This document shows, piece after piece, positions 3,943-56,161 of a stretch of DNA of 64,000 bases. The DNA is from a virus: positions 3,346 through 67,345 of the IMG/VR virus record IMGVR_UViG_3300030419_003950. The stretch is one strand, 5' to 3'. The notes under the pieces are model-generated. The model did no database searches, was not told the origin of the DNA, and worked only from the letters and a program-made list of their open reading frames with translations. Positions within the stretch are counted from its first letter, which is position 1. Each line of letters opens with the position of its first letter. The position numbers and the translations under genes are program-made.

Positions 3943-3951
3943 TTTCTTCTC

Positions 3952-4935: not shown

Positions 4936-4940
4936 TCATT

Positions 4941-5579
4941 CTACCAACCTCTTCTGTCAATTGCCTTAATAACATTAACAACCGCAGTTTCCATAGCTTT
5001 GTTAGATGCAGAACTTAAAGAACTTTGATTCCATTCCATATTAGGATTTTTTAGAAATCCTTGACCTATGGTGGATGCTCTTCCTTGTCCACTACCAACA
5101 ACATACTGAGTATTCTCATTATTGATTACTTTAACTTGGATACCAACAATAGTTTCGTTTATTGTTTGAACTTTTCCACCTTTGATATCTTCTTTTAAGT
5201 TAACAGCGAAATCATAAATAGTTACATACGCAGTGTATTTGGTTTTCTCTATTTTAGCTTCGTTGGCTTTCAAATCATTTAACATAGATAATTGAATATC
5301 TCTATCCGCTTCTACGAGATTAAATCTTCCAATGAAAGAAATAACATTTGCAAGTTCTTGATTTAACCCAAATGCAACTCGTTTATCTCCAAGTTCTGGA
5401 TATCTTTCTTCAAGTTCTTTATTAAACTTAACATCCAAAATCTTTAGATTATCTACTTTTGTGATTTCCACTTCATCCAATGATTTTTGCTTTTCATACT
5501 CACCAACATATTGTTCGGTTGATACTGATGCAGCACATCCCATTAAAACCATTAAACTAAGTAGTAATAGTTTTTTCAT
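4941..5579 (-). CDS. CsgG-family lipoprotein
   Basis: Likely start MKKLLLLSLMVLMGC (lipobox) at 5579; GRFNLVE, VGIQVKVIN and GSGQGRA motifs are CsgG-like. Confidence 0.65.
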   Translation of the reverse strand: MKKLLLLSLMVLMGCAASVSTEQYVGEYEKQKSLDEVEITKVDNLKILDVKFNKELEERYPELGDKRVAFGLNQELANVISFIGRFNLVEADRDIQLSMLNDLKANEAKIEKTKYTAYVTIYDFAVNLKEDIKGGKVQTINETIVGIQVKVINNENTQYVVGSGQGRASTIGQGFLKNPNMEWNQSSLSSASNKAMETAVVNVIKAIDRRGW

Positions 5580-22780: not shown

Positions 22781-23937
22781 TACTTATCAATTCTATGTTT
22801 ATCACTTAATGCATCTTTCACTGCACTCATAGCACTTGTTACTGCACTCCAATTAGGTGCTGCACTTACAGGTCCTGGTGTTGGGCCTGTTGGTGTTGGT
22901 ATACCAGTCACTCCACCAATTGCAGTAACCAATGCATCTAACTTATCATATAGTATTTGTCCCAACACTTGTGGTTCAGTTCCACTATCATCACCTATCT
23001 TAACTTCAGGTGATTCCATTACAATTTTATTAACTGCACCTATTGAAACATTATCACTTGAATATAATCCAATACTATCTGTTCGTGTAGTAAAAATTAT
23101 TCTATCACTACGAACTTGTATTTGTGACTTATCATAATCAAGTGAGTCTTGTATTACTTTAGATGTTATTGGTAGTTCTAAGTTTACTTTTTCATTATAA
23201 GTCATATTAATAGAACTCAAATCTTCTTTAATAGACTCAACTGCTAAATTATCATTTACAAATCCTGATACACCATTTGTTATTTTTATACTTGGTGATA
23301 TTTCTTGTTCATCAATTTGGTTACTACCTAATCTAATCATATTACCAAATCGTCCATTAAGAATTGTATCACCCTCAAACATAACAGGTCGTTTTACATC
23401 TTTATCTGCTGTATAATAAAAACCAGGTTTATACTTATCTGAATTTACCATTGGTGACCTATCCCAAGTAAAGTCAGATTGTTTTACATTTGCATTTTTA
23501 TTTGTTAAATTACTAATACCTGGTCTTGCCATATTAGTTGGTGAATTATTTAAATGAACAAATCCTAAATAATATCTTTCACCATTATCAACATATCCAT
23601 ATACAACTTCACCTGCTACAGGTATTCTTTGTATATCTGGCATCAATGGTCTAAACCAACTACAACTACTTATATTTACATTATCTTCTGAAAGTAAAAA
23701 TCTACCTTTTATACCACCATAATAAGTATAGTCAGGTTCCCCATCTATTTTTCTTCGTGGTAAATCTTCTTCTTGTAAACAAACATTCAATACTTCAACT
23801 GGTTCTAATTCATAAAATAAGTCACTATCTTGATTTAATTTATTTATAAGATTTTGACTTTGTGCTGTTACTAAACCAGTTTTATCTTTACCAACACCAG
23901 GTGATGTAGTTTGTTTAACTTTTAATGTTACTGGCAT
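22780..23937 (-). CDS. Baseplate hub/central spike protein (gp5/gpV-like)
   Basis: N-terminal OB-like P..GEVV; EGDTILNGRFGNMIRLG; beta-helix strands; C-terminal PTGPTPGP. Confidence 0.6.
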   Translation of the reverse strand: MPVTLKVKQTTSPGVGKDKTGLVTAQSQNLINKLNQDSDLFYELEPVEVLNVCLQEEDLPRRKIDGEPDYTYYGGIKGRFLLSEDNVNISSCSWFRPLMPDIQRIPVAGEVVYGYVDNGERYYLGFVHLNNSPTNMARPGISNLTNKNANVKQSDFTWDRSPMVNSDKYKPGFYYTADKDVKRPVMFEGDTILNGRFGNMIRLGSNQIDEQEISPSIKITNGVSGFVNDNLAVESIKEDLSSINMTYNEKVNLELPITSKVIQDSLDYDKSQIQVRSDRIIFTTRTDSIGLYSSDNVSIGAVNKIVMESPEVKIGDDSGTEPQVLGQILYDKLDALVTAIGGVTGIPTPTGPTPGPVSAAPNWSAVTSAMSAVKDALSDKHRIDK

Positions 23938-23947
23938 TATTTATCCT

Positions 23948-24337
23948 TTAGTCTTGATTCAAACTCGCCTGAATAGTATCAGAATGACTTTGTAACTCTT
24001 GAACATCGTCTTCTATTGCATCCATTAATTGTTTCTTTTCTGCATCTGTAAGTCCGAATTCATCTCCACTATCGTTACTAATTCTTCCCTCAGCTGCCAT
24101 TATTCTTTGAACCACGGTTGCTAATTTAACTAATTGTTCATCATTTTTAACATTTATTTCTAAATATTCTTTTAACATAGGTATTATTTGCACAGCCGTA
24201 TCACCATCTTTAATAAACCCTACTACCTCTTTCATCAATACTTCTAATTGTTGTTTATTGGTTTTGGAATTATCATAGATGTCTTTGAATACATCTGATA
24301 AGGTTTTACCCTCAAATATTTCGTAATCATTTGCCAT
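23948..24337 (-). CDS. Helical hypothetical protein
   Basis: Clean ORF preceded by a TATTTAT motif. Confidence 0.6.
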   Translation of the reverse strand: MANDYEIFEGKTLSDVFKDIYDNSKTNKQQLEVLMKEVVGFIKDGDTAVQIIPMLKEYLEINVKNDEQLVKLATVVQRIMAAEGRISNDSGDEFGLTDAEKKQLMDAIEDDVQELQSHSDTIQASLNQD

Positions 24338-24478
24338 AATTTTGCCTATACATTATCAATAATAAATATTAAAACTTCAAAAAATGTTTATATATAAATA
24401 TATATCAACCCATGAAAGTCTCATATATACAATAGTTATTTAAGTCGGTGGAAATCCGACTATAACGGAGAAACAAAA

Positions 24479-24700
24479 ATGAAGGAAATCATAACAATAG
24501 TTAAGGGATATGTAGATGATTTAGCTCATCTTCTTTTATCCTTGGTTGCCATAGGTGCTGTTTCTGAAGTAATTTTTGGAACTGGTATCTTCGGTGTAAA
24601 TGTTATCGGTAACCTAACATCAATCATAAACACATTCGGCGAATCTGGATTCGCTGGACTCGTCGCATTGTTGGTGTTGGTGGGTTTATTCCGTAAATAG
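24479..24700 (+). CDS. Small two-TM membrane protein
   Basis: GGAG RBS, two hydrophobic helices, own terminator. Confidence 0.75.
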   Translation: MKEIITIVKGYVDDLAHLLLSLVAIGAVSEVIFGTGIFGVNVIGNLTSIINTFGESGFAGLVALLVLVGLFRK

Positions 24701-24723
24701 TACTAATTCGGATAGAAGTAAAT

Positions 24724-24755
24724 AAAAAAGGGTGGGATTTTTCTCACCCTTTTTT
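24724..24755. terminator. Intrinsic terminator, potentially bidirectional
   Basis: AAAAAAGGGTGGGA-TTTT-TCTCACCCTTTTTT. Confidence 0.8.
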
Positions 24756-24828
24756 GTTATATTAAAATATTTATATTTAATCAACCGCATATGTGTTGAT
24801 TATTAACGCGTTAGTACAGGAGTATATT

Positions 24829-25026
24829 ATGAAGACAATACTAACTGGTATACTTTCTCTTTTAATTCTCTTTGGTTCAGTTCCAACTGCACAAGCATCT
24901 GATATGAATAATAAAGCTGGTATGGAAGAAGTGAAGAAGAAGAAAAAGAAGAAAGGAAAGAAACTTGGTGAAAAAGGTAAGAAGAAGAAAAAGGGTTTTT
25001 GGTCTAAAGTCTTTGGAACTAAGTAG
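24829..25026 (+). CDS. Exported poly-Lys peptide
   Basis: AGGAG RBS before MKTILTG, signal peptide AQA-S, KKKKKKKGKK tail. Confidence 0.65.
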   Translation: MKTILTGILSLLILFGSVPTAQASDMNNKAGMEEVKKKKKKKGKKLGEKGKKKKKGFWSKVFGTK

Positions 25027-25035
25027 TATTAAAAT

Positions 25036-25064
25036 AAAAAAGGGAAGTGAAAACTTCCCTTTTT
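25036..25064. terminator. Bidirectional intrinsic terminator between convergent genes
   Basis: AAAAAGGGAAGT-GAAA-ACTTCCCTTTTT. Confidence 0.85.
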
Positions 25065-25066
25065 AT

Positions 25067-25981
25067 TTACCAAAATTTATTATTGGTGTTTATAATATAA
25101 TCTTCAAAATTATCTTTAAATTTTCCTAATCGTTTTGCAGTTTCTTTTGGATTACCCTTTGAAAACATTAAAACATTTTGATGTGATTTAGGAACTTTTC
25201 TACTTGTGTTCATAAATTTTTCTGCTCTCATACCTGCAGTTGCAGGTTCTTGTAATAAAATCATTTCATTATAATAAGACATTCCAGCATCTTCAAACGC
25301 CTGAATCGTATCTGAAACAAAACCAACATAAGAATCTTTTTCTCTTACCTCACCAACAACAAATACCGCAAAAGAATTATCTTCTAATTTATCACAAGAT
25401 TTTTTAATAATTTCTCTATATTGTTTTAAAAAAGTTTTATAATCCATATTAGAAATATCTTCTGGGTTATCTGAATATTGTTCAAGATTATAATAAGGTG
25501 GACAAGAAAATAAAAAATTATATTTACCTTTTACCTTATCTATATTTAAAGAATTATCATTTATCCAAGTTGGTATGTGAGTATCACATATTTTTTTACC
25601 TTGAATTATATTGTGTTCTATTTGGTTTTTTGATAAATCAACACCAGTATAATTTCTTTTTAATTTACTTGCAACAATTCCTCTAACTGAACCACCTGCA
25701 AAACAATCTAAAATTTTATCATCTTCTTTTGTAAACCATCTATAAATACATTCACATAAAACAGGGTCAAATACAGAAGTGCTATTCTGTCTCATTTGTT
25801 TCATCAAATTACTAAGACTTAAAAGATTTTCTTCCCTACCTAATTCACTTTCTATACCAAGTTCGTTCCACACTTTTTTTCTTTTTTTCCATCTAAGAGA
25901 TTTCACATCAAGAATACTAATAGGTGGTATTACGAATACTTGTTCAAGTCTACCAGAGCGTGATTTTATTTCATCGTTCAT
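25067..25981 (-). CDS. Amino-methyltransferase-fold DNA modification enzyme
   Basis: LDCFAGGSVRG (motif I) and FSCPPYY (motif IV). Confidence 0.8.
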   Translation of the reverse strand: MNDEIKSRSGRLEQVFVIPPISILDVKSLRWKKRKKVWNELGIESELGREENLLSLSNLMKQMRQNSTSVFDPVLCECIYRWFTKEDDKILDCFAGGSVRGIVASKLKRNYTGVDLSKNQIEHNIIQGKKICDTHIPTWINDNSLNIDKVKGKYNFLFSCPPYYNLEQYSDNPEDISNMDYKTFLKQYREIIKKSCDKLEDNSFAVFVVGEVREKDSYVGFVSDTIQAFEDAGMSYYNEMILLQEPATAGMRAEKFMNTSRKVPKSHQNVLMFSKGNPKETAKRLGKFKDNFEDYIINTNNKFW

Positions 25982-27678
25982 ATTTTTTCAATTTTTATTC
26001 TTGCATTATTATGTCCGAAACTTCGGTGTATATAATTATACCCTATTTTCTTCTTAATGAAAAGTTTTTCAAACATATCATCAATTTTATTTTGTTCATT
26101 TTTTAAATAGTCTGTATGACATCCAACTTGAAAAGTTTTTTTAGGTCTCCACAATAACTCTTCTGATATTTCACCTTCAAAAGCTTTTCTTAAAATATAT
26201 TTCATCACATTACCATCATCTATTTTTGTATCAAATACTTCTGTTTTTGTTCTAAGTGAATGATTTTCATCTCGATATTTTGTTGGTATTGTTAATCCAA
26301 AATCTATAACTTCTTTATTTAAAAATGGTGTTCTCAATTCTACCTTTCCACCATACATCATTGATTTGTTTGTTCGAACTAAATTACTTTTATGTAAACC
26401 ATTTAACAAATTAATTCTCTTTTGATGCCAATGAATTGGTTGATTCCAACAAAATCTTTTTACATCACCATATGAAGCAAATATCTCATCAGCTCCCTCA
26501 CCACCAAATACAACTTTAAATCCTTTATCTCTTATTTCCCAAGATAAAAATAATTGTGCTACTGCTGGTGAAACTTGTGTCCACTTATGTGTTTCACTTG
26601 CCCATATACTTTCTTCTAAAACTCTTTCAATATCTTTTCTATCTACATTAACCTCGTGTAATTTAATTCCAAATTCTTTTGCGGCCATTCGGGCATAATG
26701 TAAATCATCTTTATATTTTGATTTTCTTGTAGGATTAACATTAACCACAAATGCTTCTAAATTAGGAAATTTCTTTGATAGTAAATAAGTAATAATTGTG
26801 CTATCAATTCCACCACTTAATATTGTACATATTGGAACATCACTAATAGTTTCATCATCAACAGCCTTTTCCAATACTTCTCTAAATCCTTTTGTATAAT
26901 AATCTAATCCTTTATCTTCTGTATCAAAATTTATAAATTGTTCTTCATCTCTTGTATAATATGATTTACCATTTTTATCATAATCTTTTTTAAAATCAAA
27001 CCATTTAGTTTCTTCCATCCCATATTCATTCGGCACAAATGGATGTGGTTTAAAATGTATTAATGTGCCAGGTAAAACTGGATGTATTGTTTCTTTATCT
27101 CTCCATTCAGATAGTGGTTGATATTTTTTAGTTTTTACATCTACTTTATAATATGATTCATTTAACCCAATTACTAAACCTTTAGCCTCACTTGTATAGG
27201 CAAACCTATTACCATCATAATAGAAATACAAAGGTAAACGGCCGATAAAATCTCTACCCAAATAAGTTTCATCCTTTTCACTATCGTAAAGTGCAAAACA
27301 AAACATACCATCAAGTTCGTTTAACGCCGTTGGAATATCATCAAGGTGGTGTATCAAATAATAAAGTAAAAGTTCCGAATCAGAGTTCTTTGATTTAAAG
27401 TTATAAAGTTTACGAAGTTTCTTATCAAATTTTTCAAAGGATGGCTTCCACAACTCACCATTAAATGCCAAATAAAATCTCGAATCATCGGACACCATAG
27501 GTTGATTTGCAACTTCCGATAAATCTTGTATAGATAATCGATTATGCGAGATATAATTTTTCCATTTTTCAAATGAGAATATAGTGTTACCATCTGTTCC
27601 CCTATGCATCATACTCTGTAATCCTTTAATTACCCTATCTTCTGAGTTAAATGCATTACCGCCTATAATTCCACACAT
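25978..27678 (-). CDS. asnB: Asparagine-synthetase-B-like amidotransferase
   Basis: MCGI Ntn Cys, HNRLSIQD, FNGEL, LSGGIDS PP-loop, GEGADEIF, RTPFL. Confidence 0.85.
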   Translation of the reverse strand: MCGIIGGNAFNSEDRVIKGLQSMMHRGTDGNTIFSFEKWKNYISHNRLSIQDLSEVANQPMVSDDSRFYLAFNGELWKPSFEKFDKKLRKLYNFKSKNSDSELLLYYLIHHLDDIPTALNELDGMFCFALYDSEKDETYLGRDFIGRLPLYFYYDGNRFAYTSEAKGLVIGLNESYYKVDVKTKKYQPLSEWRDKETIHPVLPGTLIHFKPHPFVPNEYGMEETKWFDFKKDYDKNGKSYYTRDEEQFINFDTEDKGLDYYTKGFREVLEKAVDDETISDVPICTILSGGIDSTIITYLLSKKFPNLEAFVVNVNPTRKSKYKDDLHYARMAAKEFGIKLHEVNVDRKDIERVLEESIWASETHKWTQVSPAVAQLFLSWEIRDKGFKVVFGGEGADEIFASYGDVKRFCWNQPIHWHQKRINLLNGLHKSNLVRTNKSMMYGGKVELRTPFLNKEVIDFGLTIPTKYRDENHSLRTKTEVFDTKIDDGNVMKYILRKAFEGEISEELLWRPKKTFQVGCHTDYLKNEQNKIDDMFEKLFIKKKIGYNYIHRSFGHNNARIKIEKI

Positions 27679-27680
27679 AT

Positions 27681-29297
27681 CTATTCCTCACCTTTTTTAA
27701 ATACAAATATTGGTTCAAACTTATAAGCCTTTTTATTATGTATTACCGCATTCTTAATACCACTCTTACTCGGGTCTAACCCAACCATACGAGTCATTAA
27801 CATTTTCAATTTACCCATATAAGTACATCCTAATTCTTCCAAGATATCAATTGAATCTTGTTCCAATGGATAGTATAATGATTCTCCAATTTTAATATCT
27901 GCGATATTCCAAAGGATATATCTATCATTCTTTAGATACTCATACGCCGTAGTTAATGTTGGTCTTAAAAAATTATCTCTCCAATCTTCGTATTCGCTAT
28001 AAGCCTTGAATGATTGGTTCTCATCTTGACTGTATTGCTCTCTGTTAAAGTATGGCGGTGATGTGAAAACAATATCGAAAGTTCCCTTATACGATTGAAA
28101 CTTCGGATTGTTCCCAATTAATTCACTACCATCCGTAAATAATTCATAAGTATTACTTTTCTTTTCCACATCAAAAAACTTTTGGAATGTTTCACTCTCA
28201 TTATCTACACAATTATTATTATAGAAATCTGCAACTGCTTGGTATCTTCCTGTTGTATCTGGATTAGGGTCTGTTCCAACATAGTGTGCTTTCTTTCTCA
28301 TACTCATAGCACCAATTATTCTACCACCCCATCCACTACTACTATCATAAATTGTTATTGGGCCATCAACATTCTGTGTGAATGTTTCATATAAATACTT
28401 TGCAGTTAATGCTGGAAAGTTTACAGCAGGTTGTCCACATGATAATCTAAACACTTGTAATATCTTTGGAAAGATACCATCAGTTTTATCATACCAACGA
28501 ATTAAATAAAAATACTTTGTAACCTTACCACTCTTTGCCACACTCTCACTTGGTATATCACCAAGATTACTAACCTGTCTTTTATTTAAATAACCATCTT
28601 CAACTAATTGTTTTACTTCATCTGCCTTTAAATATAAATTCTTAAACCCTTGATACTCTTCATTAAATGTTCCATAATTATCGGTTGTAATATCTTTAAC
28701 TCTAGCCAACACAATATCTAAATCAGAATATTTATCCACGAATACTTTACCATCATGAACATCTTTAATAAATTCTATACCACTTTGTCCGTTCCAAAAA
28801 GGATTTTCATCTGCTTTATTTACAACACTTCTACTCCAACTATACATTGAATCTCTTTTTACAGCTCGTTTCATAATGTTAACAAACTTTTCTTCCATAT
28901 CAGGGTCTGCGAAATGGTCATAAATAGATAAACCATTATCTGCGGATTTACCAATACTGATTTTTGTTTTTAACATTGTAGGAAAGAATTGATTTACAAC
29001 ACTTGCATCTTTGTTGAAGTTTTGTATTATACCAAGTGATTCTTTATCACCTGTCAAATCTTTTTGTCTGAAATCACAAGGATTGGATTTCAATTTAGAG
29101 AAACTTTTAATTATACCTGCTTCATCTTTTCCAATGACAGGCGGTGTTCCATACTCATCCCATTGTGAAGTAACTTCTCCACGAAGAGTACGAGCCCATT
29201 CTGTAAATTCACTATCACTCATACCTAATAAATCATGGTATGTAGTGTTAGATTTAAATTCAGAGAATTTGCTTCTTTCGTAAAACCATTTTTTCAA
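27681..29297 (-). CDS. Amino-methyltransferase-fold protein
   Basis: YDSSSGWGGR, GTDPN and FTSPPYF motifs. Confidence 0.75.
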   Translation of the reverse strand: MKKWFYERSKFSEFKSNTTYHDLLGMSDSEFTEWARTLRGEVTSQWDEYGTPPVIGKDEAGIIKSFSKLKSNPCDFRQKDLTGDKESLGIIQNFNKDASVVNQFFPTMLKTKISIGKSADNGLSIYDHFADPDMEEKFVNIMKRAVKRDSMYSWSRSVVNKADENPFWNGQSGIEFIKDVHDGKVFVDKYSDLDIVLARVKDITTDNYGTFNEEYQGFKNLYLKADEVKQLVEDGYLNKRQVSNLGDIPSESVAKSGKVTKYFYLIRWYDKTDGIFPKILQVFRLSCGQPAVNFPALTAKYLYETFTQNVDGPITIYDSSSGWGGRIIGAMSMRKKAHYVGTDPNPDTTGRYQAVADFYNNNCVDNESETFQKFFDVEKKSNTYELFTDGSELIGNNPKFQSYKGTFDIVFTSPPYFNREQYSQDENQSFKAYSEYEDWRDNFLRPTLTTAYEYLKNDRYILWNIADIKIGESLYYPLEQDSIDILEELGCTYMGKLKMLMTRMVGLDPSKSGIKNAVIHNKKAYKFEPIFVFKKGEE

Positions 29298-29311
29298 TTA
29301 TTAACCTTTAA

Positions 29312-29923
29312 TTAGTTTAAGTCGTTATTTATCAATTCATCAACCATTGTTAAATCTGTTTTTATAATTTCTGCTCTATCAAATTTATATGGTTTAGTTC
29401 CAGGACTCTCCAGTATATCAATACGACTAACGAATCTTTTATTCATTGTATCTTTTACTTGATACACGCCGTCTTTCCCATCTGTCCCTTTGAGTAAAAT
29501 GAAATCACCATAATCTAAGAATCCACCATGTCGTTTCAAAAGATTTCTACTAACCGCTATAAATCGGTACTCGCTAGCTTTATGTACCCTAATACGCGTT
29601 CCATCCGCGAGAATGTTCGGTGTAGAATCAGTTTGAGAACGAACAGGATGATACATGGTTACGGTCACTTCTAATCCCTCAAGTTTAAACTCCTCAACTA
29701 TTCCATTGAGTCGTTTGTTTTCCGCTTTCAAACCCACAAGCGTTTGCTCATGGAATTCTTTATAGTTATCAAAAAGCTTTGTCCATATGAATGTGTTGAA
29801 TAATAGCATTATCATTAATCCACCACAAAAATATTTAAATGTGTTCTTCATAATTATACTTTCAAAAAATGAAGTCTTCATATCACTCGTATATAAATAT
29901 CTGTTTAGTTTGTTAAAATTCAT
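29312..29923 (-). CDS. Membrane-anchored 3D-domain (MltA-like) peptidoglycan-related protein
   Basis: TM segment, VTVTMY, IAVSR, VKDT and RIDI motifs; true start may be 29881. Confidence 0.7.
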   Translation of the reverse strand: MNFNKLNRYLYTSDMKTSFFESIIMKNTFKYFCGGLMIMLLFNTFIWTKLFDNYKEFHEQTLVGLKAENKRLNGIVEEFKLEGLEVTVTMYHPVRSQTDSTPNILADGTRIRVHKASEYRFIAVSRNLLKRHGGFLDYGDFILLKGTDGKDGVYQVKDTMNKRFVSRIDILESPGTKPYKFDRAEIIKTDLTMVDELINNDLN

Positions 29924-30240
29924 TTTATTTGTATTCCTTTCAAAATTTCACTTTCGTTTTCTCTCATGTAATGTTGAATTACGAACGCTTCGACTATGTG
30001 CGTAAAGAACCAAAAGAAACTAATCAATGGTACATATATTTGGTAATCCAAATTCAATTTTGATATCCCTAACCATACTAAGAATATCATTCCAATTGAT
30101 TTTGTTAAGAATCCCATTCCTGAAAATCCTAAAGACATTATATTACCTCTCTGTACCACCACATAAATTCCAACTAGCATATGCATCAAGTTTAGAAATA
30201 TAGGTGCGAGAATACCTAACAAAATATATTCTACTATCAT
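29920..30240 (-). CDS. Three-TM membrane protein (AtpI-like appearance)
   Basis: Hydrophobicity pattern only. Confidence 0.45.
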   Translation of the reverse strand: MIVEYILLGILAPIFLNLMHMLVGIYVVVQRGNIMSLGFSGMGFLTKSIGMIFLVWLGISKLNLDYQIYVPLISFFWFFTHIVEAFVIQHYMRENESEILKGIQIK

Positions 30241-30268
30241 ATTATTATAACCTTTTTCATTTTTATTG

Positions 30269-30679
30269 TGGAGCTGGTGGGAGTCGAACCCACGTCCAGT
30301 CTGCCTTTACTAAAGAGTCATTCACAACTTAGTTTAGTTCCAAATCGGTAGTCACTAACAACCCACCATGTCCCATTTTACTCAGAATGGTTTAACTAAG
30401 ATTTCATTTATACTCTAAACCTGAAGTGAGTTCGTGTTCAACTTATTTTATGCTCGGGTGTTGAACAACCCAAGAACTTATGCGTAAGCGTAAGTTGGTT
30501 GGTAGTCTTGAGCCATTACTGGTTCAGCAACTGGAACATCTATTTCGAATAGATGCCAATCTATTACCAACCCGTCAAGCGATAATTCGCCAATTGAGTT
30601 TGTGGGATTTTTTCTAAGACCTTCCCAATCTCTGTTGCACTCTGTTATTAAATAACACCTGTCGATACCAAGCAGCCCC
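30269..30679 (-). ncRNA. ssrA: tmRNA
   Basis: 5' GGGGCTG..GGTATCGAC; 3' GGACGTGGGTTCGACTCCCACCAGCTCCA; G3-U Ala acceptor; PK1 (TGGGA/TCCCA); tag ORF 30591-30478. Confidence 0.93.
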
Positions 30680-46038: not shown

Positions 46039-46671
46039 CTATATAGTTTTTTCATATCCGAAAATTCTGAAATCATCACAATAAAAATCATACACCAATT
46101 CCATTAATTCATCATCATAAAGTTCTTTCCATTTATATGGTGGTTCTGATTTATTATAATGTGGTAATTCATATGGTTCAATTCCTATCTTCTCACACGC
46201 GTAATCGAAATCATTTTGTAGGTTTTCATATCTTCCAATAAAATCTAATTCTCTATCAAGATAATAATGTTGTGGTATCTGTGACCACCAACCTTGTCCT
46301 ACTGCTGATGTTCCTTGTTTATATTGTATATTTGCATTTATACCTTGTATTGCCCATTTCTTAAATGTATTTATTTTTGCTATCTCTTTACCTTGTGAAT
46401 GTTTAGGTCCAGGTCTATAACGATTTGACCTATGATAAAAATAATAACTACACAATCTACTATATGGATTTCTTACGAATGCAAATTTAAAATATTTATT
46501 CCAAATTCTTGAACCATGTCTTTTATAAACTACACTTGCAGCATCATGTGGGTAAATATTACCTCTTGATATTACTCCATATTGTTCAAATGGAAAACTA
46601 TTACGAACACTTGTTCCACCAGTTTTAGGAACATGAATAAATATAAATTTATGTTTATGATGAACCCACAT
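46039..46671 (-). CDS. Sulfotransferase (Sulfotransfer_2-like)
   Basis: FIHVPKTGGTS, FVRNPYSR, DFIGRYE and DFRIFGY motifs. Confidence 0.85.
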   Translation of the reverse strand: MWVHHKHKFIFIHVPKTGGTSVRNSFPFEQYGVISRGNIYPHDAASVVYKRHGSRIWNKYFKFAFVRNPYSRLCSYYFYHRSNRYRPGPKHSQGKEIAKINTFKKWAIQGINANIQYKQGTSAVGQGWWSQIPQHYYLDRELDFIGRYENLQNDFDYACEKIGIEPYELPHYNKSEPPYKWKELYDDELMELVYDFYCDDFRIFGYEKTI

Positions 46672-46886
46672 TAATTCTTACTCGGTTTTATATCAGGATA
46701 ATCTAATAACCTAAATGTTAAAATAACCTTATCACCTTCCCACACTTCATAACCTTCAAATACACAATTACCTGGTTTAATCATTCTATCTATAACTCGT
46801 TGTTGTTGTGATTCTTTATGACAAATACATTGTATTAAATTACCACTAACATTTACATATACAAAATCATCTTTTTCAGCTTTCAC
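46671..46886 (-). CDS. Hypothetical protein
   Basis: Coupled ORF. Confidence 0.5.
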   Translation of the reverse strand: MKAEKDDFVYVNVSGNLIQCICHKESQQQRVIDRMIKPGNCVFEGYEVWEGDKVILTFRLLDYPDIKPSKN

Positions 46887-47379
46887 CTTTTAACTCCACA
46901 ATATCATTTTGTAATAATACACAATGTCCATCATATTCAACATCTATCTTAAATTCATTTCTCTCTACAGCTAACTTATCTATTTCAGAAGCCTCATCAA
47001 ATCCAAATCTTAATGTAAAAGTATTTTTTGGTAAATCAAACATAGGAACTGGTTCAGGCCATGGTTGTTGGTAAAAATCAAACACCTTAATAAAATTATT
47101 TTCTAATTCATTTTTAAGTGTTTTATATGTAGTTCTATTTGGTATATCATTATCATTACCAGCTTCAAACTTAGTTCTCATTACCAATAATACATTTTCA
47201 TATTCCTTATCTACAAGATAATCTACAAGTGGATTCATATCAATATTATTTAATTCATCATTAACATCAATTTCAAGTGTATTACCTCTTCTCCAAGAAA
47301 ACTTTACAACTACACCATAATCTTTTCTATCCCAATACTGATAACTTCTAAAATATTTTTTTATAGTTTCGATAGCCAT
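46876..47379 (-). CDS. Hypothetical protein
   Basis: Coupled ORF. Confidence 0.5.
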   Translation of the reverse strand: MAIETIKKYFRSYQYWDRKDYGVVVKFSWRRGNTLEIDVNDELNNIDMNPLVDYLVDKEYENVLLVMRTKFEAGNDNDIPNRTTYKTLKNELENNFIKVFDFYQQPWPEPVPMFDLPKNTFTLRFGFDEASEIDKLAVERNEFKIDVEYDGHCVLLQNDIVELKGES

Positions 47380-48299
47380 TCATCTACCTCTCTACGATAT
47401 AATTCATTAGACAATTTATTTTCTGATATACCACCTTTTAAATGTGTGCAAAAATCTATACTACCATATTGATATGTATGTAATCCTTTAGGTGTTTTAA
47501 AGTTTGGATTATCATAATAAGGTCCCAGATGTTTATATGGTAAATTTAATTCCAAACACTTTAAAGTTGCACCATGATTGGAATCACCATATTTCCAATC
47601 AACATCATAATCATCAAAGAAAGATTTTTTACACATAAAGAAATATGCATCAGAAAACCCAAACTCTGTTTTAACATATCCACCATCTTCTGGCGATATC
47701 TTTGGTGGTCTACCATGAAAATCATATTTTAATTCTCTTTCATAATCTTGTAGTTCTGGATACTTTAAATATGTAGATAACCAAACCTTTTTATTATCAA
47801 CTGATATGTAAGCATATTTATTTAAATCTTCAATTAACATATCAAAAAAATCATTATGATAATATAAATCATTATGTTGTAATACAATATATTCACCATC
47901 TGCAGATTGTATTCCTTGATGGAATGCTAATGAAGTCCACATAGTCATATTACCCATCATCTTCTGAACCATTCTACCATCTTGATGTGATTGTATGAGT
48001 CCACTTCTAAGAACATTAGATTCGTATAAATTTTGTAATCCCTTTATAACTCTTAAATATTTGTAATCATCTTGTTTTAAAAATTTATTAAATGTATTAC
48101 TATTATCTACAACTATAATCTCATAATCTTGTTTACAATTCTTTTCAATATTCAATAAAACTCTATTCGTTGAATCTGCAATCGAATAACTATCAGTTTG
48201 TATAAAATGATTATGTTCTTTCTCATCCAATAATAATTGTTCTTCCTTTTCTATTGTACAGAATGGTATTACAAAACTTATTTTAGGAAACTCATTCAT
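47361..48299 (-). CDS. GT-A fold glycosyltransferase (GT2-like)
   Basis: ISFVIP, EIIVVDNS and GEYIVLQHND motifs. Confidence 0.7.
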   Translation of the reverse strand: MNEFPKISFVIPFCTIEKEEQLLLDEKEHNHFIQTDSYSIADSTNRVLLNIEKNCKQDYEIIVVDNSNTFNKFLKQDDYKYLRVIKGLQNLYESNVLRSGLIQSHQDGRMVQKMMGNMTMWTSLAFHQGIQSADGEYIVLQHNDLYYHNDFFDMLIEDLNKYAYISVDNKKVWLSTYLKYPELQDYERELKYDFHGRPPKISPEDGGYVKTEFGFSDAYFFMCKKSFFDDYDVDWKYGDSNHGATLKCLELNLPYKHLGPYYDNPNFKTPKGLHTYQYGSIDFCTHLKGGISENKLSNELYRREVDEWLSKL

Positions 48300-49072
48300 A
48301 CTACTCTTCCTTCTTCAAATGTTAACTCCATATCTAACTTACCATCCATTTTATAAAATTTCCACTTACCATCCATTTCACCATCTTTCATATTACCTGA
48401 AGCTCTTTTTGTTCCAGTAACAAAACAATCTAAAAACTTACCATCTAAGTTACCATCTTTATAATTCTTCTCTTGTATTACTTGTGGTTTTCTACTTGGT
48501 CTATATTTGTGATATTGTCTATATCTACATTCATATATTATATTATCATCTTGATATTGTTTATAAGTTTCTTTTGAACCATCATGATGATATGTAAACC
48601 AATCACCATCTTTTGTTCCATTTCTAAAACTTTCTACACCTTGTAATCTACCATCAGTATAATAAAACTTTTGTTCACCATGTTTAAATCCACTTCTAAA
48701 ATTCTCATCTGTAATTATTACACCATGTTCATCATAATTTATTTTATTACCATGTGGTAAAGTTCCTTTCATTTCTTGTTCACATTGTATAGTTCCATCT
48801 TCATACTTCCAAGTATAATGTGAAATACCATCCATAACTTTTATATCTGGTGCCATCCACTTCTTATCAATCAATTGAGCCTTCTCTTGTGCTTTACAAT
48901 CCTTTACCATTTGTTTAGCCATCTTAGGATTATCTTGTTGCCATCTAACTAATCTCCCCCATTCTGGACTAAATGGAAATATAACTTTATTATCTTTTAA
49001 ATCCAAATATGCATTAGGATTAAATAACATTTTTTTATATCTTAAATCCATGCATCTTCTCCTGATATCCAT
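48296..49072 (-). CDS. MORN-variant repeat protein
   Basis: Repeated G.K.G....YY.DG units. Confidence 0.8.
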   Translation of the reverse strand: MDIRRRCMDLRYKKMLFNPNAYLDLKDNKVIFPFSPEWGRLVRWQQDNPKMAKQMVKDCKAQEKAQLIDKKWMAPDIKVMDGISHYTWKYEDGTIQCEQEMKGTLPHGNKINYDEHGVIITDENFRSGFKHGEQKFYYTDGRLQGVESFRNGTKDGDWFTYHHDGSKETYKQYQDDNIIYECRYRQYHKYRPSRKPQVIQEKNYKDGNLDGKFLDCFVTGTKRASGNMKDGEMDGKWKFYKMDGKLDMELTFEEGRVV

Positions 49073-49782: not shown

Positions 49783-50394
49783 CTATTTTGGTATCCCACT
49801 TAAAACCTTTTCTTTAAATTCCACAATTCCATCAGCAAGATTTGCTTCCCAATCTTCGTGAGCTTGTTCATCTGCACCATCAGTAATATACTTGAATGAT
49901 ACAAATGGAACTTTTCTTATATGACAAACCTTTGCTAATGCATATGCTTCCATATCAACAACTTCACCATAGTATTGTGTTCTATCTTCTACGAAAGAAT
50001 CACCACTACCACAAGTTGCTCTTCTCTTAATATTATTATATTCGGTAATACCAAAATCTAACATCAATGGTATATCATCTTCAAATGGTGTTTCACCTCT
50101 CATAAATCCAAGACCTGTTACATCCATATCTCTCTGAACAAACTTTGTACAATCAACCAATGTTTTCTTTTTAATTTTACGACTACCAGCAGTTCCATAA
50201 TTAATAACTAAATCATAAGGTATGTATGAACCATACTTACCAAAGTGTGTTGTTAATGCATATGTTGCATTCACTTTACCAACTCCTGTATAAAGAACTT
50301 CGTAATCTTCTAACTCACCTTGTGTTTCTACTTCAAGTGCACAAACGATTAATATCTTCTTATCTAATTCTGATGCCGTTCCATATTCACTCAT
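49783..50394 (-). CDS. mtnN: MTA/SAH nucleosidase
   Basis: GVGKVNA, NYGTAG, SGDSF, VDMEAYA and ITDGAD motifs. Confidence 0.82.
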   Translation of the reverse strand: MSEYGTASELDKKILIVCALEVETQGELEDYEVLYTGVGKVNATYALTTHFGKYGSYIPYDLVINYGTAGSRKIKKKTLVDCTKFVQRDMDVTGLGFMRGETPFEDDIPLMLDFGITEYNNIKRRATCGSGDSFVEDRTQYYGEVVDMEAYALAKVCHIRKVPFVSFKYITDGADEQAHEDWEANLADGIVEFKEKVLSGIPK

Positions 50395-53806: not shown

Positions 53807-54354
53807 ACACCACTCCCTTTTAAGTGTAAAGAATCTTCTGTTTCAACTCCTGTTATCTGCATTGTATATTTTGTTTTTCTACCACCATTCATTGATAGAT
53901 GATATGTTCCATATTCCCAAGTATAACAATCACCTTGTTTCCAATTCGATACAACTTCATTATCTATTTGTAATATTTGTCCGATATCCCAATCTTCTAA
54001 AAATATAAGATATCTATAAATTTTTGTTTTATCTTCAATACCATACTTTGATACTAAATATGAATTAGTATCATAATGCCATGGATTAACTTGTCCAACT
54101 GGTTGTTTAAATAATGCAACTGCGGTATTATCTAATCCAGTTAATTTGGTTATGTCATAACATTCTTTTGGCACATCATCATATATTTGTGAAAATTTGG
54201 TATTCTCTTCTACATAACCCCAATCATAATATTTCTCTTTATTTTTATTTATTTCATCTTGACCTTCAAAATACTTTATTGCAGATTCTGAATCTGGATA
54301 TTTAACATTTAAAATGTTTTTATAATCACCACTAAATCTACCTACATACATCAC
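53794..54354 (-). CDS. Cupin / 2OG-Fe(II) oxygenase-like protein
   Basis: PWHYD...YHLSMN facial-triad pattern. Confidence 0.6.
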   Translation of the reverse strand: MMYVGRFSGDYKNILNVKYPDSESAIKYFEGQDEINKNKEKYYDWGYVEENTKFSQIYDDVPKECYDITKLTGLDNTAVALFKQPVGQVNPWHYDTNSYLVSKYGIEDKTKIYRYLIFLEDWDIGQILQIDNEVVSNWKQGDCYTWEYGTYHLSMNGGRKTKYTMQITGVETEDSLHLKGSGVWTF

Positions 54355-55340
54355 TTATCCCATTCAAAACCATTTCCATAAGCACCCCATTCAGATGTCT
54401 TATAATAAATAGGTTTCTTTAATTTTAAATATTCAATTATCTCATTTGGATAGACTGGATAATGACTTGGAATATCCCAAGTATTATCAATCTTATCAGG
54501 AGTATGAACAGTCATTTGTAATGGTTCTTTCTCACCGATTGCATAACTCAAATAAACATAACATTCTTTCAAACCTTTTCTTTTTAATTCTTCTACCGCA
54601 ATATGTCTTGCCATATAGGCTGCACTTCTATCAACCTTACTCGGGTCTTTCCCACTATAAGCCCCACCACCAATCGGCACTCTGGGACCATAATTATCTA
54701 CAACTAATTTTCTACCAGTCAATCCAGCATCTGCATCGAATCCACCTTGTTCCCAATTACCAGCAGGATTGGCATGTGTAATCATTAATCCATAATCCTC
54801 AGTCTTTAACCATTCACTAACTTCTTTATGTAGTGTAATTCTATCTGTATTCTGAAATGAAGTTACCACGAAAAGATTTCTATCACCTCGTGTGGTTACT
54901 TGAGTTTTGCCATCGTATGGAAATTTATTATACAGATGTCTACATAAACTTCTTGCTAATCTATATTCTTCAGGAACATATTCATCATTCTCATCACAAG
55001 CATAACCAACCATAATTCCTTGGTCTCCTGCACCACCAGTATCAACACCACGAGAAATCTCTGGTGATTGTTTAACTATATTAACTGATGTTGTGTGAGT
55101 TTCATCATATATTTCTGGCTCACCTAAAACCTCATCTACTAAATGTGGTATAGGTATTTCTTTATTTGTATTAATTGTAACTTCACCTGTAACATAGATT
55201 TGCCCGTGTCCACCCATAGTTTCTACGGCCACACGAGCATCTCTATCTTGTTCAAGACAGTAATCTAATATCCTATCGGAAATTCTATCACATATCTTAT
55301 CAGGATGTTTAGGTGAAACAAACTCTGCTGTTCTATACAC
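54351..55340 (-). CDS. metK: S-adenosylmethionine synthetase
   Basis: HPDKICD, GAGDQG, GLTGRK and GGGAYSGKDPSKVDRS motifs. Confidence 0.95.
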   Translation of the reverse strand: MYRTAEFVSPKHPDKICDRISDRILDYCLEQDRDARVAVETMGGHGQIYVTGEVTINTNKEIPIPHLVDEVLGEPEIYDETHTTSVNIVKQSPEISRGVDTGGAGDQGIMVGYACDENDEYVPEEYRLARSLCRHLYNKFPYDGKTQVTTRGDRNLFVVTSFQNTDRITLHKEVSEWLKTEDYGLMITHANPAGNWEQGGFDADAGLTGRKLVVDNYGPRVPIGGGAYSGKDPSKVDRSAAYMARHIAVEELKRKGLKECYVYLSYAIGEKEPLQMTVHTPDKIDNTWDIPSHYPVYPNEIIEYLKLKKPIYYKTSEWGAYGNGFEWDK

Positions 55341-55642: not shown

Positions 55643-56161
55643 TTATTCATATGTTATAACTGATTTAACTTTATCTTTATTCAAGAAACTAAGATTGATT
55701 AAATATAGTTCATCAACTACCTCGTATCCAGCTTCTTGACATAACTTTCTTGCTGCTTTTGCAGTTCCACCTGTGGCATATACATCATCCACAATAATAA
55801 CTTTAGGCCATTCACCTTCTGGTGCTGGTTTTAATTCTAAAGTATCTGTTCCATACTCTAATTCATAATCGTGGGAAATAACAGGTGGTGGAAGTTTACC
55901 TGCTTTTCTCAATGGTATAAAACCTAATCCCATTCTCTTTGCTAAATAAGCACCAAATATAAAACCTCTTGCTTCTATTCCAACTATATAAGTTACACCT
56001 ACACTTGATTCCAATAATCCTCTCATCAATAGTGTGGCATGATTTAATGCGTTACTATCTTTTAATAATGGTGTTATATCTTTAAAGGTAATACCTTCTT
56101 TAGGCCAATCTGGCACATCAATTATATAATCTTTCAAATTCATTTTATTCTCCGATGACAT
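55643..56161 (-). CDS. apt: Adenine phosphoribosyltransferase
   Basis: PDWPKEGITFKDITPLL, EARGF, LEYG and VDDVYATGGT motifs. Confidence 0.93.
   Translation of the reverse strand: MSSENKMNLKDYIIDVPDWPKEGITFKDITPLLKDSNALNHATLLMRGLLESSVGVTYIVGIEARGFIFGAYLAKRMGLGFIPLRKAGKLPPPVISHDYELEYGTDTLELKPAPEGEWPKVIIVDDVYATGGTAKAARKLCQEAGYEVVDELYLINLSFLNKDKVKSVITYE

What the first reader, a model, noticed from the sequence alone, without database searches (positions are those of the whole stretch)
25067..29297. MTase-AsnB-MTase triplet: candidate novel DNA base hypermodification pathway
Seen: an intact AsnB-like amidotransferase (Ntn Cys and PP-loop) coupled between two divergent amino-MTase-fold genes (SPPY and atypical CPPY), with a 4-nt overlap and a 2-nt gap. 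Known: AsnB-like enzymes adenylate and amidate carboxylates on varied substrates, and some MTase folds transfer carboxymethyl or aminocarboxypropyl groups. Inference: an MTase-fold enzyme adds a carboxylated group to A or C and AsnB amidates it, giving a carbamoylmethyl-type base that protects against restriction.
Basis: partly seen in the sequence, partly recalled or inferred. Interest (0 to 1): 0.75.

Follow-up and report, generated by a model that had tools for sequence, protein, structure and literature searches.

The report
Phage DNA-modification operon: transferase plus amidotransferase
An uncultured marine phage carries a methyltransferase-like enzyme coupled to an asparagine-synthetase-like enzyme that recur together among phage DNA-replication genes and probably build an undescribed amide-bearing DNA base, while the third gene is an ordinary, separately mobile DNA methylase.

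Summary
Three co-directional genes (538-aa SPPY methyltransferase fold, 566-aa AsnB-like, 304-aa CPPY methyltransferase fold) have a 2-nt gap and a 4-nt overlap, and a terminator-like hairpin follows the third.

- The AsnB belongs to a phage-only clade: 42-78% identity in 52 viral loci, at most 32% to cellular AsnB.
- Of the loci with at least 5 kb on both sides, 20 of 21 carry an SPPY-fold gene. None of 16 loci with distant viral AsnBs does.
- In relatives the module sits among replication genes (sliding clamp, PolB, RNR).
- The glutaminase and ATP sites are intact, but the acyl-substrate region is not that of an asparagine synthetase.

The "triplet" itself is not conserved. The small methylase is a common phage DNA methylase, and a close relative keeps it without AsnB. 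The usual partners are a PLP enzyme homologous to phage M6 gp52, a 2-hydroxyacid-dehydrogenase-like protein, a hydroxylase and an HD protein. All are missing from this 67-kb record.

The closest published system is CmoA/CmoX/CmoY (5-carboxymethylcytosine and its amide). Here the transferase is amino-type and no CmoA was found. No chemistry has been shown. The scan has noted related modules on other DNA before.

The parts
27681..29297 (-). MTlarge (family F3): 538-aa protein with an unknown N-terminal domain (about residues 1-290) and a class I methyltransferase fold bearing motif I then motif IV (SPPY)
   Evidence: The AF2 model has pLDDT 82.5. Foldseek returned only generic class I methyltransferases, with Trm11 first. 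2062 homologues were found and the exact protein occurs on 10 contigs, the longest 146 kb.
28311..28346 (-). MTlarge motif I, DSSSGWGGRIIG; D318, S320, G322, G324, R326 and G329 are invariant in 31 F3 sequences
28029..28061 (-). MTlarge motif IV, SPPYF followed by NREQYS; S413, P414, P415, Y416, F417, E420 and Y422 are invariant
25978..27678 (-). AsnB-like glutamine amidotransferase / PP-loop adenylating enzyme of a phage-only clade
   Evidence: The exact protein occurs on 13 contigs.
27673..27675 (-). Ntn catalytic Cys2 codon of AsnB
26800..26817 (-). AsnB PP-loop SGGIDS (residues 288-293)
26566..26595 (-). AsnB acyl-substrate region ETHKWTQVSP (residues 362-371), where cellular AsnB has ETYDVTTvRAS; the Arg and the second Thr are replaced
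   Evidence: with the 1ct9 alignment
25067..25981 (-). MTsmall: 304-aa DNA methylase of the phrog_12517 / ParB-methylase family, with FAGGSVRG then CPPY and a C-terminal tail NNKFW
25037..25064 (-). terminator-like hairpin (12-bp stem followed by a T run) that closes the operon
54351..55340 (-). SAM synthetase (MetK) homologue; possible support for a high SAM demand, but its link to the operon is inferred only
   Evidence: (metK, 246 bits, below the 309-bit cut-off)
49783..50394 (-). MTA/SAH-nucleosidase-like protein (PNP_UDP_1); possible clearance of SAM by-products, inferred only
   Evidence: best 82 bits, below the equivalog cut-offs
55643..56161 (-). adenine phosphoribosyltransferase; possible adenine salvage after nucleosidase action, inferred only
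   Evidence: 190 bits, cut-off 125

Best explanation
MTlarge, AsnB and MTsmall form one operon in a large uncultured marine phage. MTlarge and AsnB are a reduced version of a variable DNA base-hypermodification module.

Step 1, inferred: MTlarge is a SAM-binding amino-methyltransferase fold with an invariant SPPY motif. After replication it attaches a carboxyl-bearing group to an exocyclic amine of a DNA base. By recall, SPPY is the N4-cytosine-type motif, so cytosine N4 is favoured.

My preferred donor chemistry is transfer of the 3-amino-3-carboxypropyl (acp) group of ordinary SAM, at about 60:40 over carboxymethyl from carboxy-SAM. Acp transfer needs no extra cofactor gene. It also gives an amino-acid-like side chain that would suit the tailoring enzymes found in relatives.

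Step 2, inferred from intact catalytic residues: AsnB hydrolyses glutamine, adenylates that carboxylate and converts it to a carboxamide.

MTsmall is an independent, ordinary DNA methylase that adds a separate methyl mark.

Shown here: gene structure, conservation, context and motif states. Not shown: any chemistry, the target base or the donor.
For: 1. Linkage. Of the 52 viral-clade AsnB loci, 34 hold an F3 gene. Of the 21 with at least 5 kb on both sides, 20 do. None of the 27 loci with distant viral AsnBs does, 16 of them fully flanked. In 9 of the 34, F3 and AsnB are at most 16 nt apart. These fall in two divergent lineages: F3-long then AsnB as in the window, and a 314-aa F3 overlapping AsnB in T4-like phages.

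2. The AsnB clade is phage-only. It is 42-78% identical in viral contigs but at most 32% identical in 185,579-species genome contigs. It is monophyletic with aLRT 99.

3. It is not an asparagine synthetase. It scores 255 bits against the 499-bit AsnB equivalog cut-off and 262 against 267.1 for TIGR01536. The canonical ETYDVTTvRAS is ETxKWTQvSPA, and YDCLRANK is NNLiRTNK. The glutaminase residues, the PP-loop and the GEGADE loop are kept.

4. DNA context. In T4-like relatives the module sits between clamp loader gp44 and gp62/RegA/PolB. In others it sits between RNR/RecA/DnaB and PolB. Of 80 loci with MTlarge homologues, 51 have a PCNA-like clamp gene, in the maps shown directly upstream of F3-long, and 45 have PolB.

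5. The PLP partner (F2) in relatives is homologous to M6 gp52: 65 of 65 phage hits are M6/YuA-like, and phmmer reaches 4e-23. M6 gp52 acts on a DNA-borne amino acid adduct (PMC11472151, Introduction passage).

6. Precedent. CmoX adds a carboxymethyl group to DNA and the AsnS-like CmoY amidates it on DNA (PMC12783734).

7. No CmoA was found in any locus, and none of 5 marine Flavobacteriaceae genomes has one over the cut-off. This favours a donor that needs only SAM.

8. The window encodes MetK-like, MTA/SAH-nucleosidase-like and APRT genes.

9. The exact AsnB is found on 13 contigs, so this reduced genotype persists in nature.
Against: - No modified base has been measured, and nothing in the sequence separates methyl, carboxymethyl and acp transfer. 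Foldseek gives only generic class I methyltransferases.
- F3-long is far more widespread than AsnB: only 26 of 80 MTlarge-anchored loci have an AsnB. F3 therefore works without it and could be a plain methylase.
- In its own clade AsnB always comes with F1 and F2 (21 of 21 fully flanked loci). The window lacks both, as well as F4 and F5, so its natural substrate may need enzymes that are missing here.
- A second AsnB subclade (501 aa) sits directly behind a thymidylate-synthase-like gene. That points to C5-pyrimidine chemistry in which F3 need not supply the carboxylate.
- The TurkishDelight CmoY-type ligase is no closer to the window's AsnB clade (median 133 bits) than to cellular AsnB (138 bits).
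- No AsnB-methyltransferase fusion exists in this clade.
- The record is only about 36% of the genome.
- The host is not established. The only leads are a baseplate protein 40% identical to Flavobacterium phage immuto and 47% to a Microcystis phage.
Confidence: 0.5

Rival explanations
1. MTlarge is an ordinary N4-cytosine or N6-adenine DNA methyltransferase. AsnB amidates a different DNA adduct, for example an amino acid attached to a 5-hydroxymethyl-pyrimidine, made by enzymes encoded outside this 67-kb record. The adjacency then reflects a shared DNA-modification island and not consecutive steps.
For: - F3-long occurs without AsnB in 54 of 80 loci.
- The 501-aa AsnB subclade is preceded by a Thymidylat_synt-like ORF (3e-08 and 6.4e-06).
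- The PLP partner is an M6 gp52 homologue. In the M6 record a thymidylate synthase and an HD-superfamily gene are annotated in the same region; by recall, the M6 pathway starts from 5-hmdU.
- The record is about 36% complete.
Against: - No PF00303 match in G000 or in the five related records, though all are fragments.
- phmmer found no homologues of M6 gp51, gp53, gp54, gp55, gp58 or gp59 in any of the 159 loci or the window.
- F3 and AsnB are translationally coupled in two divergent lineages.
- The window genotype with only F3 + AsnB recurs on 13 contigs.
Confidence: 0.27
2. In this genotype AsnB is an orphaned tailoring enzyme. Recombination removed its partners (F1, F2, F4, F5), so it is idle here, or it acts on a free small molecule such as a SAM-derived donor before transfer.
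For: - The window is the only member of its AsnB clade seen without F1 and F2; 21 of 21 fully flanked relatives have both.
- The stretch between MTlarge and g129 is hypervariable among close relatives: L001, L163-L166 and the window all differ.
Against: - The gene is full length with every catalytic motif intact.
- It is tightly coupled on both sides.
- The identical protein occurs on 13 contigs from several sources.
- L202 and L203 also carry AsnB without F1 or F2.
Confidence: 0.12
3. AsnB is an auxiliary metabolic gene that makes asparagine for the infected cell, and the two methylases are unrelated neighbours.
For: - Pfam and NCBIfam assign it to the asparagine synthase family.
- Virome papers list asparagine synthase among auxiliary metabolic genes (search listing only).
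- The window carries many metabolic genes.
Against: - It scores below both AsnB equivalog cut-offs.
- The conserved substrate-region residues are replaced.
- The clade is absent from cellular genomes above 32% identity.
- It is always beside F3 and replication genes, whereas distant viral AsnBs of canonical type never are (0 of 27).
Confidence: 0.05

Closest known systems
CmoA/CmoX/CmoY of Synechococcus phage S-B43, and the variant with a glutamine-amidase-bearing ligase (Yang et al., Nat Commun 2025, PMC12783734; I read the abstract and sections 11, 13 and 14)
   Same: A methyltransferase-fold enzyme puts a carboxylate handle on a DNA base and an asparagine-synthetase homologue turns it into an amide on DNA. 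The paper's second-largest ligase cluster keeps the Gln-amidase domain, as here. Streptomyces phage TurkishDelight shows the same gene order, methylase-AsnB-methylase.
   Different: CmoX is a C5-cytosine methylase homologue (PF00145; SPPC motif and R350), whereas here the fold is amino-type (PF01555, SPPY). No CmoA, C5-methylase or ParB homologue appears in the 159 loci or the window. The paper says it found no N6-A or N4-C carboxymethyltransferase candidates linked to CmoA. Whether TurkishDelight gp124 is the paper's A0A7T0Q3R0 could not be checked, because the supplements were not seen.
Thymidine hypermodification pathway of Pseudomonas phage M6 (gp51 amino-acid:DNA transferase, gp53 radical SAM, gp52 PLP enzyme; as summarised in the PMC11472151 Introduction passage)
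   Same: Relatives of this module carry a full-length homologue of gp52, the PLP enzyme that acts on a DNA-borne amino acid. Some also carry thymidylate-synthase-like and HD genes, as M6 does.
   Different: No gp51, gp53 or kinase homologues were found. M6 has no AsnB or SPPY fold. The window itself lacks the PLP, thymidylate-synthase-like and HD genes.
Asparagine synthetase B (E. coli AsnB, PDB 1ct9)
   Same: Two-domain architecture; Ntn Cys; R/N-G-E/D glutaminase residues; SGGxDS PP-loop; GEGADE loop. The E-value to 1ct9 is 1.1e-41.
   Different: The substrate-region motifs are replaced, it scores below the equivalog cut-offs, and it is a phage-only clade in replication-gene context.
Acp-transfer plus tailoring systems, recalled from memory and not from a call: microcin C MccD (methyltransferase-fold acp transferase) with the MccE PLP decarboxylase; diphthamide (acp transfer, methylation, then ATP-dependent amidation by Dph6)
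   Same: The logic I propose: SAM as acp donor, followed by PLP-dependent or ATP-dependent tailoring of the appended amino-acid moiety, with MTA as by-product.
   Different: Those substrates are a peptide-nucleotide and a protein histidine. No sequence relationship was tested here, and no acp-DNA base turned up in my literature searches.

Membership tests
Asparagine synthetase B (glutamine-hydrolysing, EC 6.3.5.4) | N-terminal Ntn Cys and the glutaminase residues | tested here: met
   MCGI, HNRLSIQD, NGE and SD.E are conserved in 38 of 38 clade rows at the 90% or 50% consensus level.
Asparagine synthetase B (glutamine-hydrolysing, EC 6.3.5.4) | PP-loop SGGxDS and the GEGxDE loop | tested here: met
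   SGGIDS at 288-293 and GGEGADE at 392-398.
Asparagine synthetase B (glutamine-hydrolysing, EC 6.3.5.4) | Conserved acyl-substrate region (cellular consensus ETYDVTTvRAS and YDCLRANK). The roles of the E. coli residues are recalled; my search found no paper to confirm them. | tested here: not met
   The viral clade has ETxKWTQvSPA and NNLiRTNK, with the Arg and the Asp replaced.
Asparagine synthetase B (glutamine-hydrolysing, EC 6.3.5.4) | Score above the curated equivalog cut-off | tested here: not met
   NF006949: 255.1 bits against 499. TIGR01536: 262 bits against 267.1.
CmoA/CmoX/CmoY carboxymethylcytosine system | C5-cytosine methylase homologue with SPPC and R350 (CmoX) | tested here: not met
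   Both window methylases match PF01555 and not PF00145. The TurkishDelight C5-methylase finds nothing in the 159 loci or the window.
CmoA/CmoX/CmoY carboxymethylcytosine system | Cx-SAM synthase CmoA in the phage or supplied by the host | tested here: not met
   No hit to the TurkishDelight CmoA-like protein. For TIGR00740, 0 of 5 Flavobacteriaceae genomes are over the cut-off while E. coli is. The host is not established and the record is 36% complete, so this remains provisional.
CmoA/CmoX/CmoY carboxymethylcytosine system | AsnS-like ATP-dependent amide ligase next to the transferase | tested here: met
   AsnB starts 2 nt after MTlarge. The type with a Gln-amidase domain is described in the paper's section 13.
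Exocyclic-amine DNA methyltransferases (PF01555 N6_N4_Mtase) | Pfam gathering score, and motif I plus a (D/N/S)PP(Y/F) motif IV | tested here: met
   MTlarge scores 29.9 bits and MTsmall 51.5 bits against the 26.7 cut-off. SPPY is invariant in 31 F3 sequences. MTsmall has CPPY.
Exocyclic-amine DNA methyltransferases (PF01555 N6_N4_Mtase) | Methyl transfer from SAM to DNA | not testable with these tools
   Needs an enzyme assay or nucleoside mass spectrometry.
M6/ViI-type 5-hmdU-based thymidine hypermodification | dUMP hydroxymethylase (thymidylate-synthase homologue), 5-HMUDK kinase and amino-acid:DNA transferase | tested here: not met
   No PF00303 match in G000. No M6 gp51, gp54, gp55 or gp58 homologues in the window or the loci. 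The record is incomplete.
M6/ViI-type 5-hmdU-based thymidine hypermodification | PLP enzyme of the gp52 type | tested here: not met
   Present in 75 related loci but absent from the window and from G000.

The most novel reading that the evidence does not exclude
MTlarge would be the first DNA 3-amino-3-carboxypropyl (acp) transferase. It would be an amino-methyltransferase fold that uses SAM as an alkyl-amino-acid donor on cytosine N4. AsnB would amidate the appended carboxylate, giving a diphthamide-like base, N4-(3-amino-3-carbamoylpropyl)cytosine. In relatives the same handle would be decarboxylated, hydroxylated or oxidised by clamp-tethered tailoring enzymes, so that abundant marine phages carry a combinatorial family of amino-acid-like DNA bases.
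Probability: 0.2. Interest if true: 0.85.

Novelty: new variant of a known kind. Interest (0 to 1): 0.6.

Why it matters
Phage DNA hypermodifications decide which restriction and CRISPR systems can cut a phage. They are also a source of DNA-tagging enzymes.

The only published pathway that pairs a methyltransferase fold with an AsnS-like amide former works on cytosine C5 and needs carboxy-SAM. Its authors state that they found no amino-type (N4-C or N6-A) counterpart.

The module described here is such a candidate:
- It is very common in marine viromes: 2062 MTlarge homologues, and at least 587 viral-contig stretches.
- It sits beside the replisome genes.
- Its accessory enzymes vary from phage to phage.

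The window offers the smallest version, one transferase plus one amidotransferase. That makes it the easiest to reconstitute in E. coli and read out by mass spectrometry.

Tried and rejected
- blastn of 24000-30500 against 50,697 phage records: no match.
- Sequence search of MTlarge against PDB chains: nothing below E 0.3.
- Foldseek of the MTlarge model: only generic class I methyltransferases, and no match that explains the N-terminal domain.
- ESM Atlas search on residues 1-290: only unnamed viral clusters, scores at most 0.84.
- Fused AsnB forms ('longer' search): 2 distant proteins at 26-28% identity, one joined to class I methyltransferase domains, none from this clade.
- F1, F2 and F4 against PDB sequences: E-values of 0.02 or worse, or no hit.
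- Thymidylate-synthase family in G000 and in five related records: none, but all are fragments.
- Idea that MTsmall plays the CmoA role, suggested by the TurkishDelight gene order: rejected. It is a PF01555 DNA methylase with 36-50% identical homologues in Listeria, Enterococcus, Erythrobacter, Haloarcula and Mycobacterium phages.
- Idea that the TurkishDelight ligase is the nearest relative of the window's AsnB: not upheld. Its place in the tree rests on a very long branch.
- Literature searches for this module found only the CmoX paper and the Mom papers. A search to confirm the E. coli AsnB residue roles found nothing.
- No complex prediction and no read mapping were run.
- The supplements of PMC12783734 (ligase clusters, accession lists) were not seen.

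Full report
**1. The observation**

The window is 64 kb of a 67,345-bp virus record that CheckV rates about 36% complete. GC content is about 30% and nearly all genes lie on the minus strand.

- MTlarge, 27681-29297(-), 538 aa, TTG start
- AsnB, 25978-27678(-), 566 aa
- MTsmall, 25067-25981(-), 304 aa

The MTlarge stop is followed by 2 nt and then the AsnB ATG, with a GAGGAA Shine-Dalgarno-like box upstream. The AsnB stop and the MTsmall start share ATGA. The only terminator-like hairpin in 23800-30600 lies at 25064-25037(-), directly after MTsmall. The three genes therefore end one transcription unit.

Pfam gives the following:
- AsnB: GATase_7/6 plus Asn_synthase (2.6e-51)
- MTsmall: N6_N4_Mtase, 51.5 bits
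- MTlarge: N6_N4_Mtase, 29.9 bits (cut-off 26.7)

Both methyltransferase folds place motif I before motif IV. MTlarge has D.S.GWGGR then SPPYF-NREQYS, and MTsmall has FAGGSVRG then CPPYY-NLEQYS. They are distant paralogues, 22% identical.

**2. The AsnB is a phage-only, non-canonical clade**

- Metagenome proteins at 55-78% identity are numerous.
- In IMG/VR, 52 loci carry it at 42-78% identity and 27 further loci carry only distant AsnBs at 24-31%.
- Across one genome for each of 185,579 prokaryote species, the best match is 32% identical.
- In an 80-row tree, the 38 clade rows are one side of a branch with aLRT 99 and a long stem. Cellular and giant-virus AsnBs lie on the other side.
- The protein falls below both curated AsnB cut-offs: 255 bits against 499, and 262 against 267.1.

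Its glutaminase residues, PP-loop and GEGADE loop are conserved. Two stretches that are constant in cellular AsnB are replaced throughout the clade (alignment to 1ct9):
- ETYDVTTvRAS becomes ETxKWTQvSPA.
- YDCLRANK becomes NNLiRTNK.

That these stretches bind aspartate or beta-aspartyl-AMP is my recollection. A search for a paper to confirm it found none.

The exact window protein occurs on 13 contigs from several sources, the longest 146,455 bp. It belongs to a living population and is not an assembly oddity.

**3. What travels with it**

I clustered all ORFs of the 52 loci and re-scored them with family HMMs.

| Neighbour family | All 52 AsnB loci | 21 loci with at least 5 kb on both sides |
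|---|---|---|
| F3 (MTlarge family) | 34 | 20 |
| F1 (about 285 aa, weak 2-Hacid_dh) | 46 | 21 |
| F2 (about 280 aa, PALP) | 40 | 21 |
| F4 (about 392 aa, Asp/Arg-hydroxylase cupin) | 22 | 15 |
| F5 (divergent HD phosphohydrolase) | 18 | 5 |

Family identities come from Pfam and PHROGs. None of these families occurs beside the 27 distant AsnBs (0 of 27; 0 of the 16 that are fully flanked). The loci are not independent, because several are near-identical contigs.

Gene order is shuffled between lineages but the set stays together. In 9 of the 34 loci, F3 and AsnB are at most 16 nt apart. This holds in the window's lineage (F3-long then AsnB) and in T4-like phages (a 314-aa F3 overlapping AsnB).

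**4. The context is DNA replication**

- In T4-like relatives the set is inserted between clamp loader gp44 and gp62/RegA/dUTPase-like/PolB.
- In another group it lies between RecA, 5'-3' exonuclease, DnaB and RNR on one side and a PCNA-like clamp and PolB on the other.

Anchoring on MTlarge instead gave at least 587 viral stretches. I examined the best 80, at 46-89% identity:

| Gene near the MTlarge homologue | Loci out of 80 |
|---|---|
| PCNA-like clamp | 51 |
| PolB | 45 |
| F5 (HD) | 38 |
| F2 (PLP) | 33 |
| AsnB | 26 |
| F4 (hydroxylase) | 10 |
| F1 | 3 |
| MTsmall | 2 |

In the maps printed, the clamp gene lies directly upstream of F3-long.

F3-long is therefore the constant element at the replisome genes. 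The other enzymes are optional and occur in many combinations: F3+F5, F3+F4+F5, F3+F2+F5, F3+AsnB+F2+F5, and the full set.

**5. The PLP partner**

F2's only homologues among 50,697 isolated-phage records are 65 M6/YuA-like Pseudomonas, Bordetella and related phages, all covering at least 80% of its length. The M6 match is gp52.

phmmer with gp52 finds F2 in 75 loci, best E-value 4e-23. According to the Introduction of PMC11472151 (passage read), gp52 is the PLP enzyme that converts C-alpha-GlyT in DNA to 5-NedU. It therefore works on an amino acid attached to DNA.

No homologues of M6 gp51, gp53, gp54, gp55, gp58 or gp59 were found. In a second AsnB subclade (501 aa), a 228-232-aa thymidylate-synthase-like ORF directly precedes AsnB.

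**6. The window is a reduced variant, and the triplet is not conserved**

None of F1, F2, F4, F5 or F21 is present anywhere in the 67-kb record (tblastn), and neither is a thymidylate-synthase family member.

Close relatives differ exactly in the stretch between MTlarge and gene g129:
- L001: MTlarge-AsnB-401aa-146aa-F1-F4-F2-F5-...-g129
- L166: MTlarge-F5-241aa-MTsmall-g129, with MTsmall 91% identical and no AsnB
- L164 and L165: MTlarge, F4 and F5
- The window: MTlarge-AsnB-MTsmall

None of the 52 AsnB loci has an MTsmall homologue.

MTsmall has homologues at 36-50% identity over about 90% of its length in Listeria, Enterococcus, Erythrobacter, Haloarcula, Mycobacterium and other phages. They are annotated as DNA (adenine) methylase or ParB-methylase. 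Its 90% cluster has 88 members. I read it as an independent, mobile DNA methylase.

L202 and L203 show that AsnB can occur without F1 and F2 elsewhere too.

**7. Comparison with what is published**

PMC12783734 (abstract and sections 11, 13 and 14 read) reports the following:
- CmoA makes carboxy-SAM.
- CmoX, a C5-methylase homologue, makes 5-carboxymethylcytosine.
- CmoY, an AsnS homologue, ligates glycine to it on DNA.
- A second ligase cluster keeps the Gln-amidase domain and is predicted to use ammonia, but it could not be tested.
- The authors found no N6-A or N4-C carboxymethyltransferase candidates with CmoA.

Streptomyces phage TurkishDelight has this architecture: two ParB genes, a C5-methylase, an AsnB with a GATase domain, and a Methyltransf_25 protein. 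Whether it is the paper's example I could not check, because the supplements were not seen.

In my material, the TurkishDelight C5-methylase, CmoA-like and ParB proteins find nothing in the 79 + 80 loci or the window.

Five marine Flavobacteriaceae genomes have no CmoA over the cut-off, while the E. coli control does. Flavobacteria are only a plausible host. A baseplate protein is 40% identical to Flavobacterium phage immuto and 47% to a Microcystis phage, and a relative carries a SusC-like TonB receptor.

The TurkishDelight ligase scores higher against the 501-aa subclade (median 197 bits) than against cellular AsnB (138 bits), but not against the window's clade (133 bits).

**8. Mechanism**

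What the data support: MTlarge and AsnB belong to a replisome-associated DNA-modification module, and this AsnB does not make asparagine.

What is inferred: F3 supplies the carboxylate that AsnB amidates. Because the window has only these two enzymes and no CmoA was found, I favour acp transfer from ordinary SAM over carboxymethyl transfer.

An acp group is an alpha-amino acid. That would give substrates to the gp52-like PLP enzyme, the Asp/Asn-hydroxylase-like cupin and the 2-hydroxyacid-dehydrogenase-like protein seen in relatives. The analogies to MccD/MccE and to diphthamide are recalled and were not tested.

The window also encodes MetK-like, MTA/SAH-nucleosidase-like and APRT genes. These fit heavy SAM use but do not tell methyl transfer from acp transfer.

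The evidence against is given in full in the evidence fields. The main points are:
- F3 often occurs without AsnB.
- AsnB's usual partners are missing here.
- The thymidylate-synthase-like link in the sister subclade points to C5 chemistry.
- No structural feature separates the possible donor chemistries.

**9. A side observation bearing on action on DNA**

PolB in these loci ends in an aromatic peptide such as KFFSF. I applied a simple rule: at least 2 aromatic residues in the last five, and at least one in the last three.

| Family | Proteins with such a tail |
|---|---|
| PolB | 36 of 44 |
| F1 | 19 of 31 |
| F2 | 21 of 50 |
| AsnB | 20 of 51 |
| MTsmall-type | 2 of 2 |
| Other ORFs | 102 of 940 |

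The window's MTsmall ends in NNKFW, but the window's AsnB has no such tail. This is compatible with tethering to the clamp. Binding was not tested.

**10. Verdict**

- I rate it a new variant of a known kind: a methyltransferase fold paired with an AsnS-like DNA hypermodification enzyme.
- The scan has noted related modules on other DNA before. I re-tested their thymidylate-synthase-like, PLP and clamp-tail leads here.

Noticed in passing
window 54351-55340(-), 49783-50394(-), 55643-56161(-): The phage encodes a MetK-like SAM synthetase, an MTA/SAH-nucleosidase-like protein and an adenine phosphoribosyltransferase. Together they form a kit for SAM supply and by-product salvage.
   Followed up: partly
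window 46039-54354(-): A tightly packed run of glycan-type genes: sulfotransferase, GT2, a MORN-repeat protein, GT25, a B12-binding radical SAM enzyme, an unknown 436-aa protein and an epimerase fragment. A NodU-like carbamoyltransferase lies at 60704-62194 and an IMPDH/GMP-reductase-family gene at 58394-59422.
   Followed up: no
window 24479-24700(+) and 24793-25026(+): Two small plus-strand ORFs sit in an otherwise minus-strand genome, each followed by a hairpin and T run. One is a hydrophobic 73-aa protein. The other has a signal-peptide-like start and a poly-lysine tail. They occupy the place where relatives carry F1-F4-F2-F5.
   Followed up: no
L167, L179, L188, L192, L202-L204 (PolB, AsnB, F1, F2 and MTsmall-like ORFs): Module enzymes often end in aromatic peptides like the PolB tail (KFFSF): AsnB ends IYKWI, F1 ends NKWF, and the L202 MTsmall-like protein ends QNFFSF. 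These are possible clamp-docking tails.
   Followed up: partly
L198:3078-4568(+): A GmrSD_N + HNH nuclease gene sits inside the modification module, between the PLP enzyme and PolB.
   Followed up: no
L167:11860-14568(+): A full-length TonB-dependent receptor with a CarboxypepD_reg domain (SusC-like) lies directly after F3-long, which hints at a Bacteroidota host.
   Followed up: no
L202:6137-6661(+): A GNAT acetyltransferase sits directly after AsnB in a locus that lacks the PLP enzyme.
   Followed up: no
L242 (Pseudanabaena phage Pam4, CDS 3029-5518): An 829-aa protein annotated as a PLP-dependent enzyme contains an MTsmall-like region at 49% identity in two pieces. It may be a fusion or a gene interrupted by an intein.
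   Followed up: no
P0241 (1254 aa, metagenome protein): A distant AsnB (28% identity) fused to several class I methyltransferase domains. It is not from this clade.
   Followed up: no
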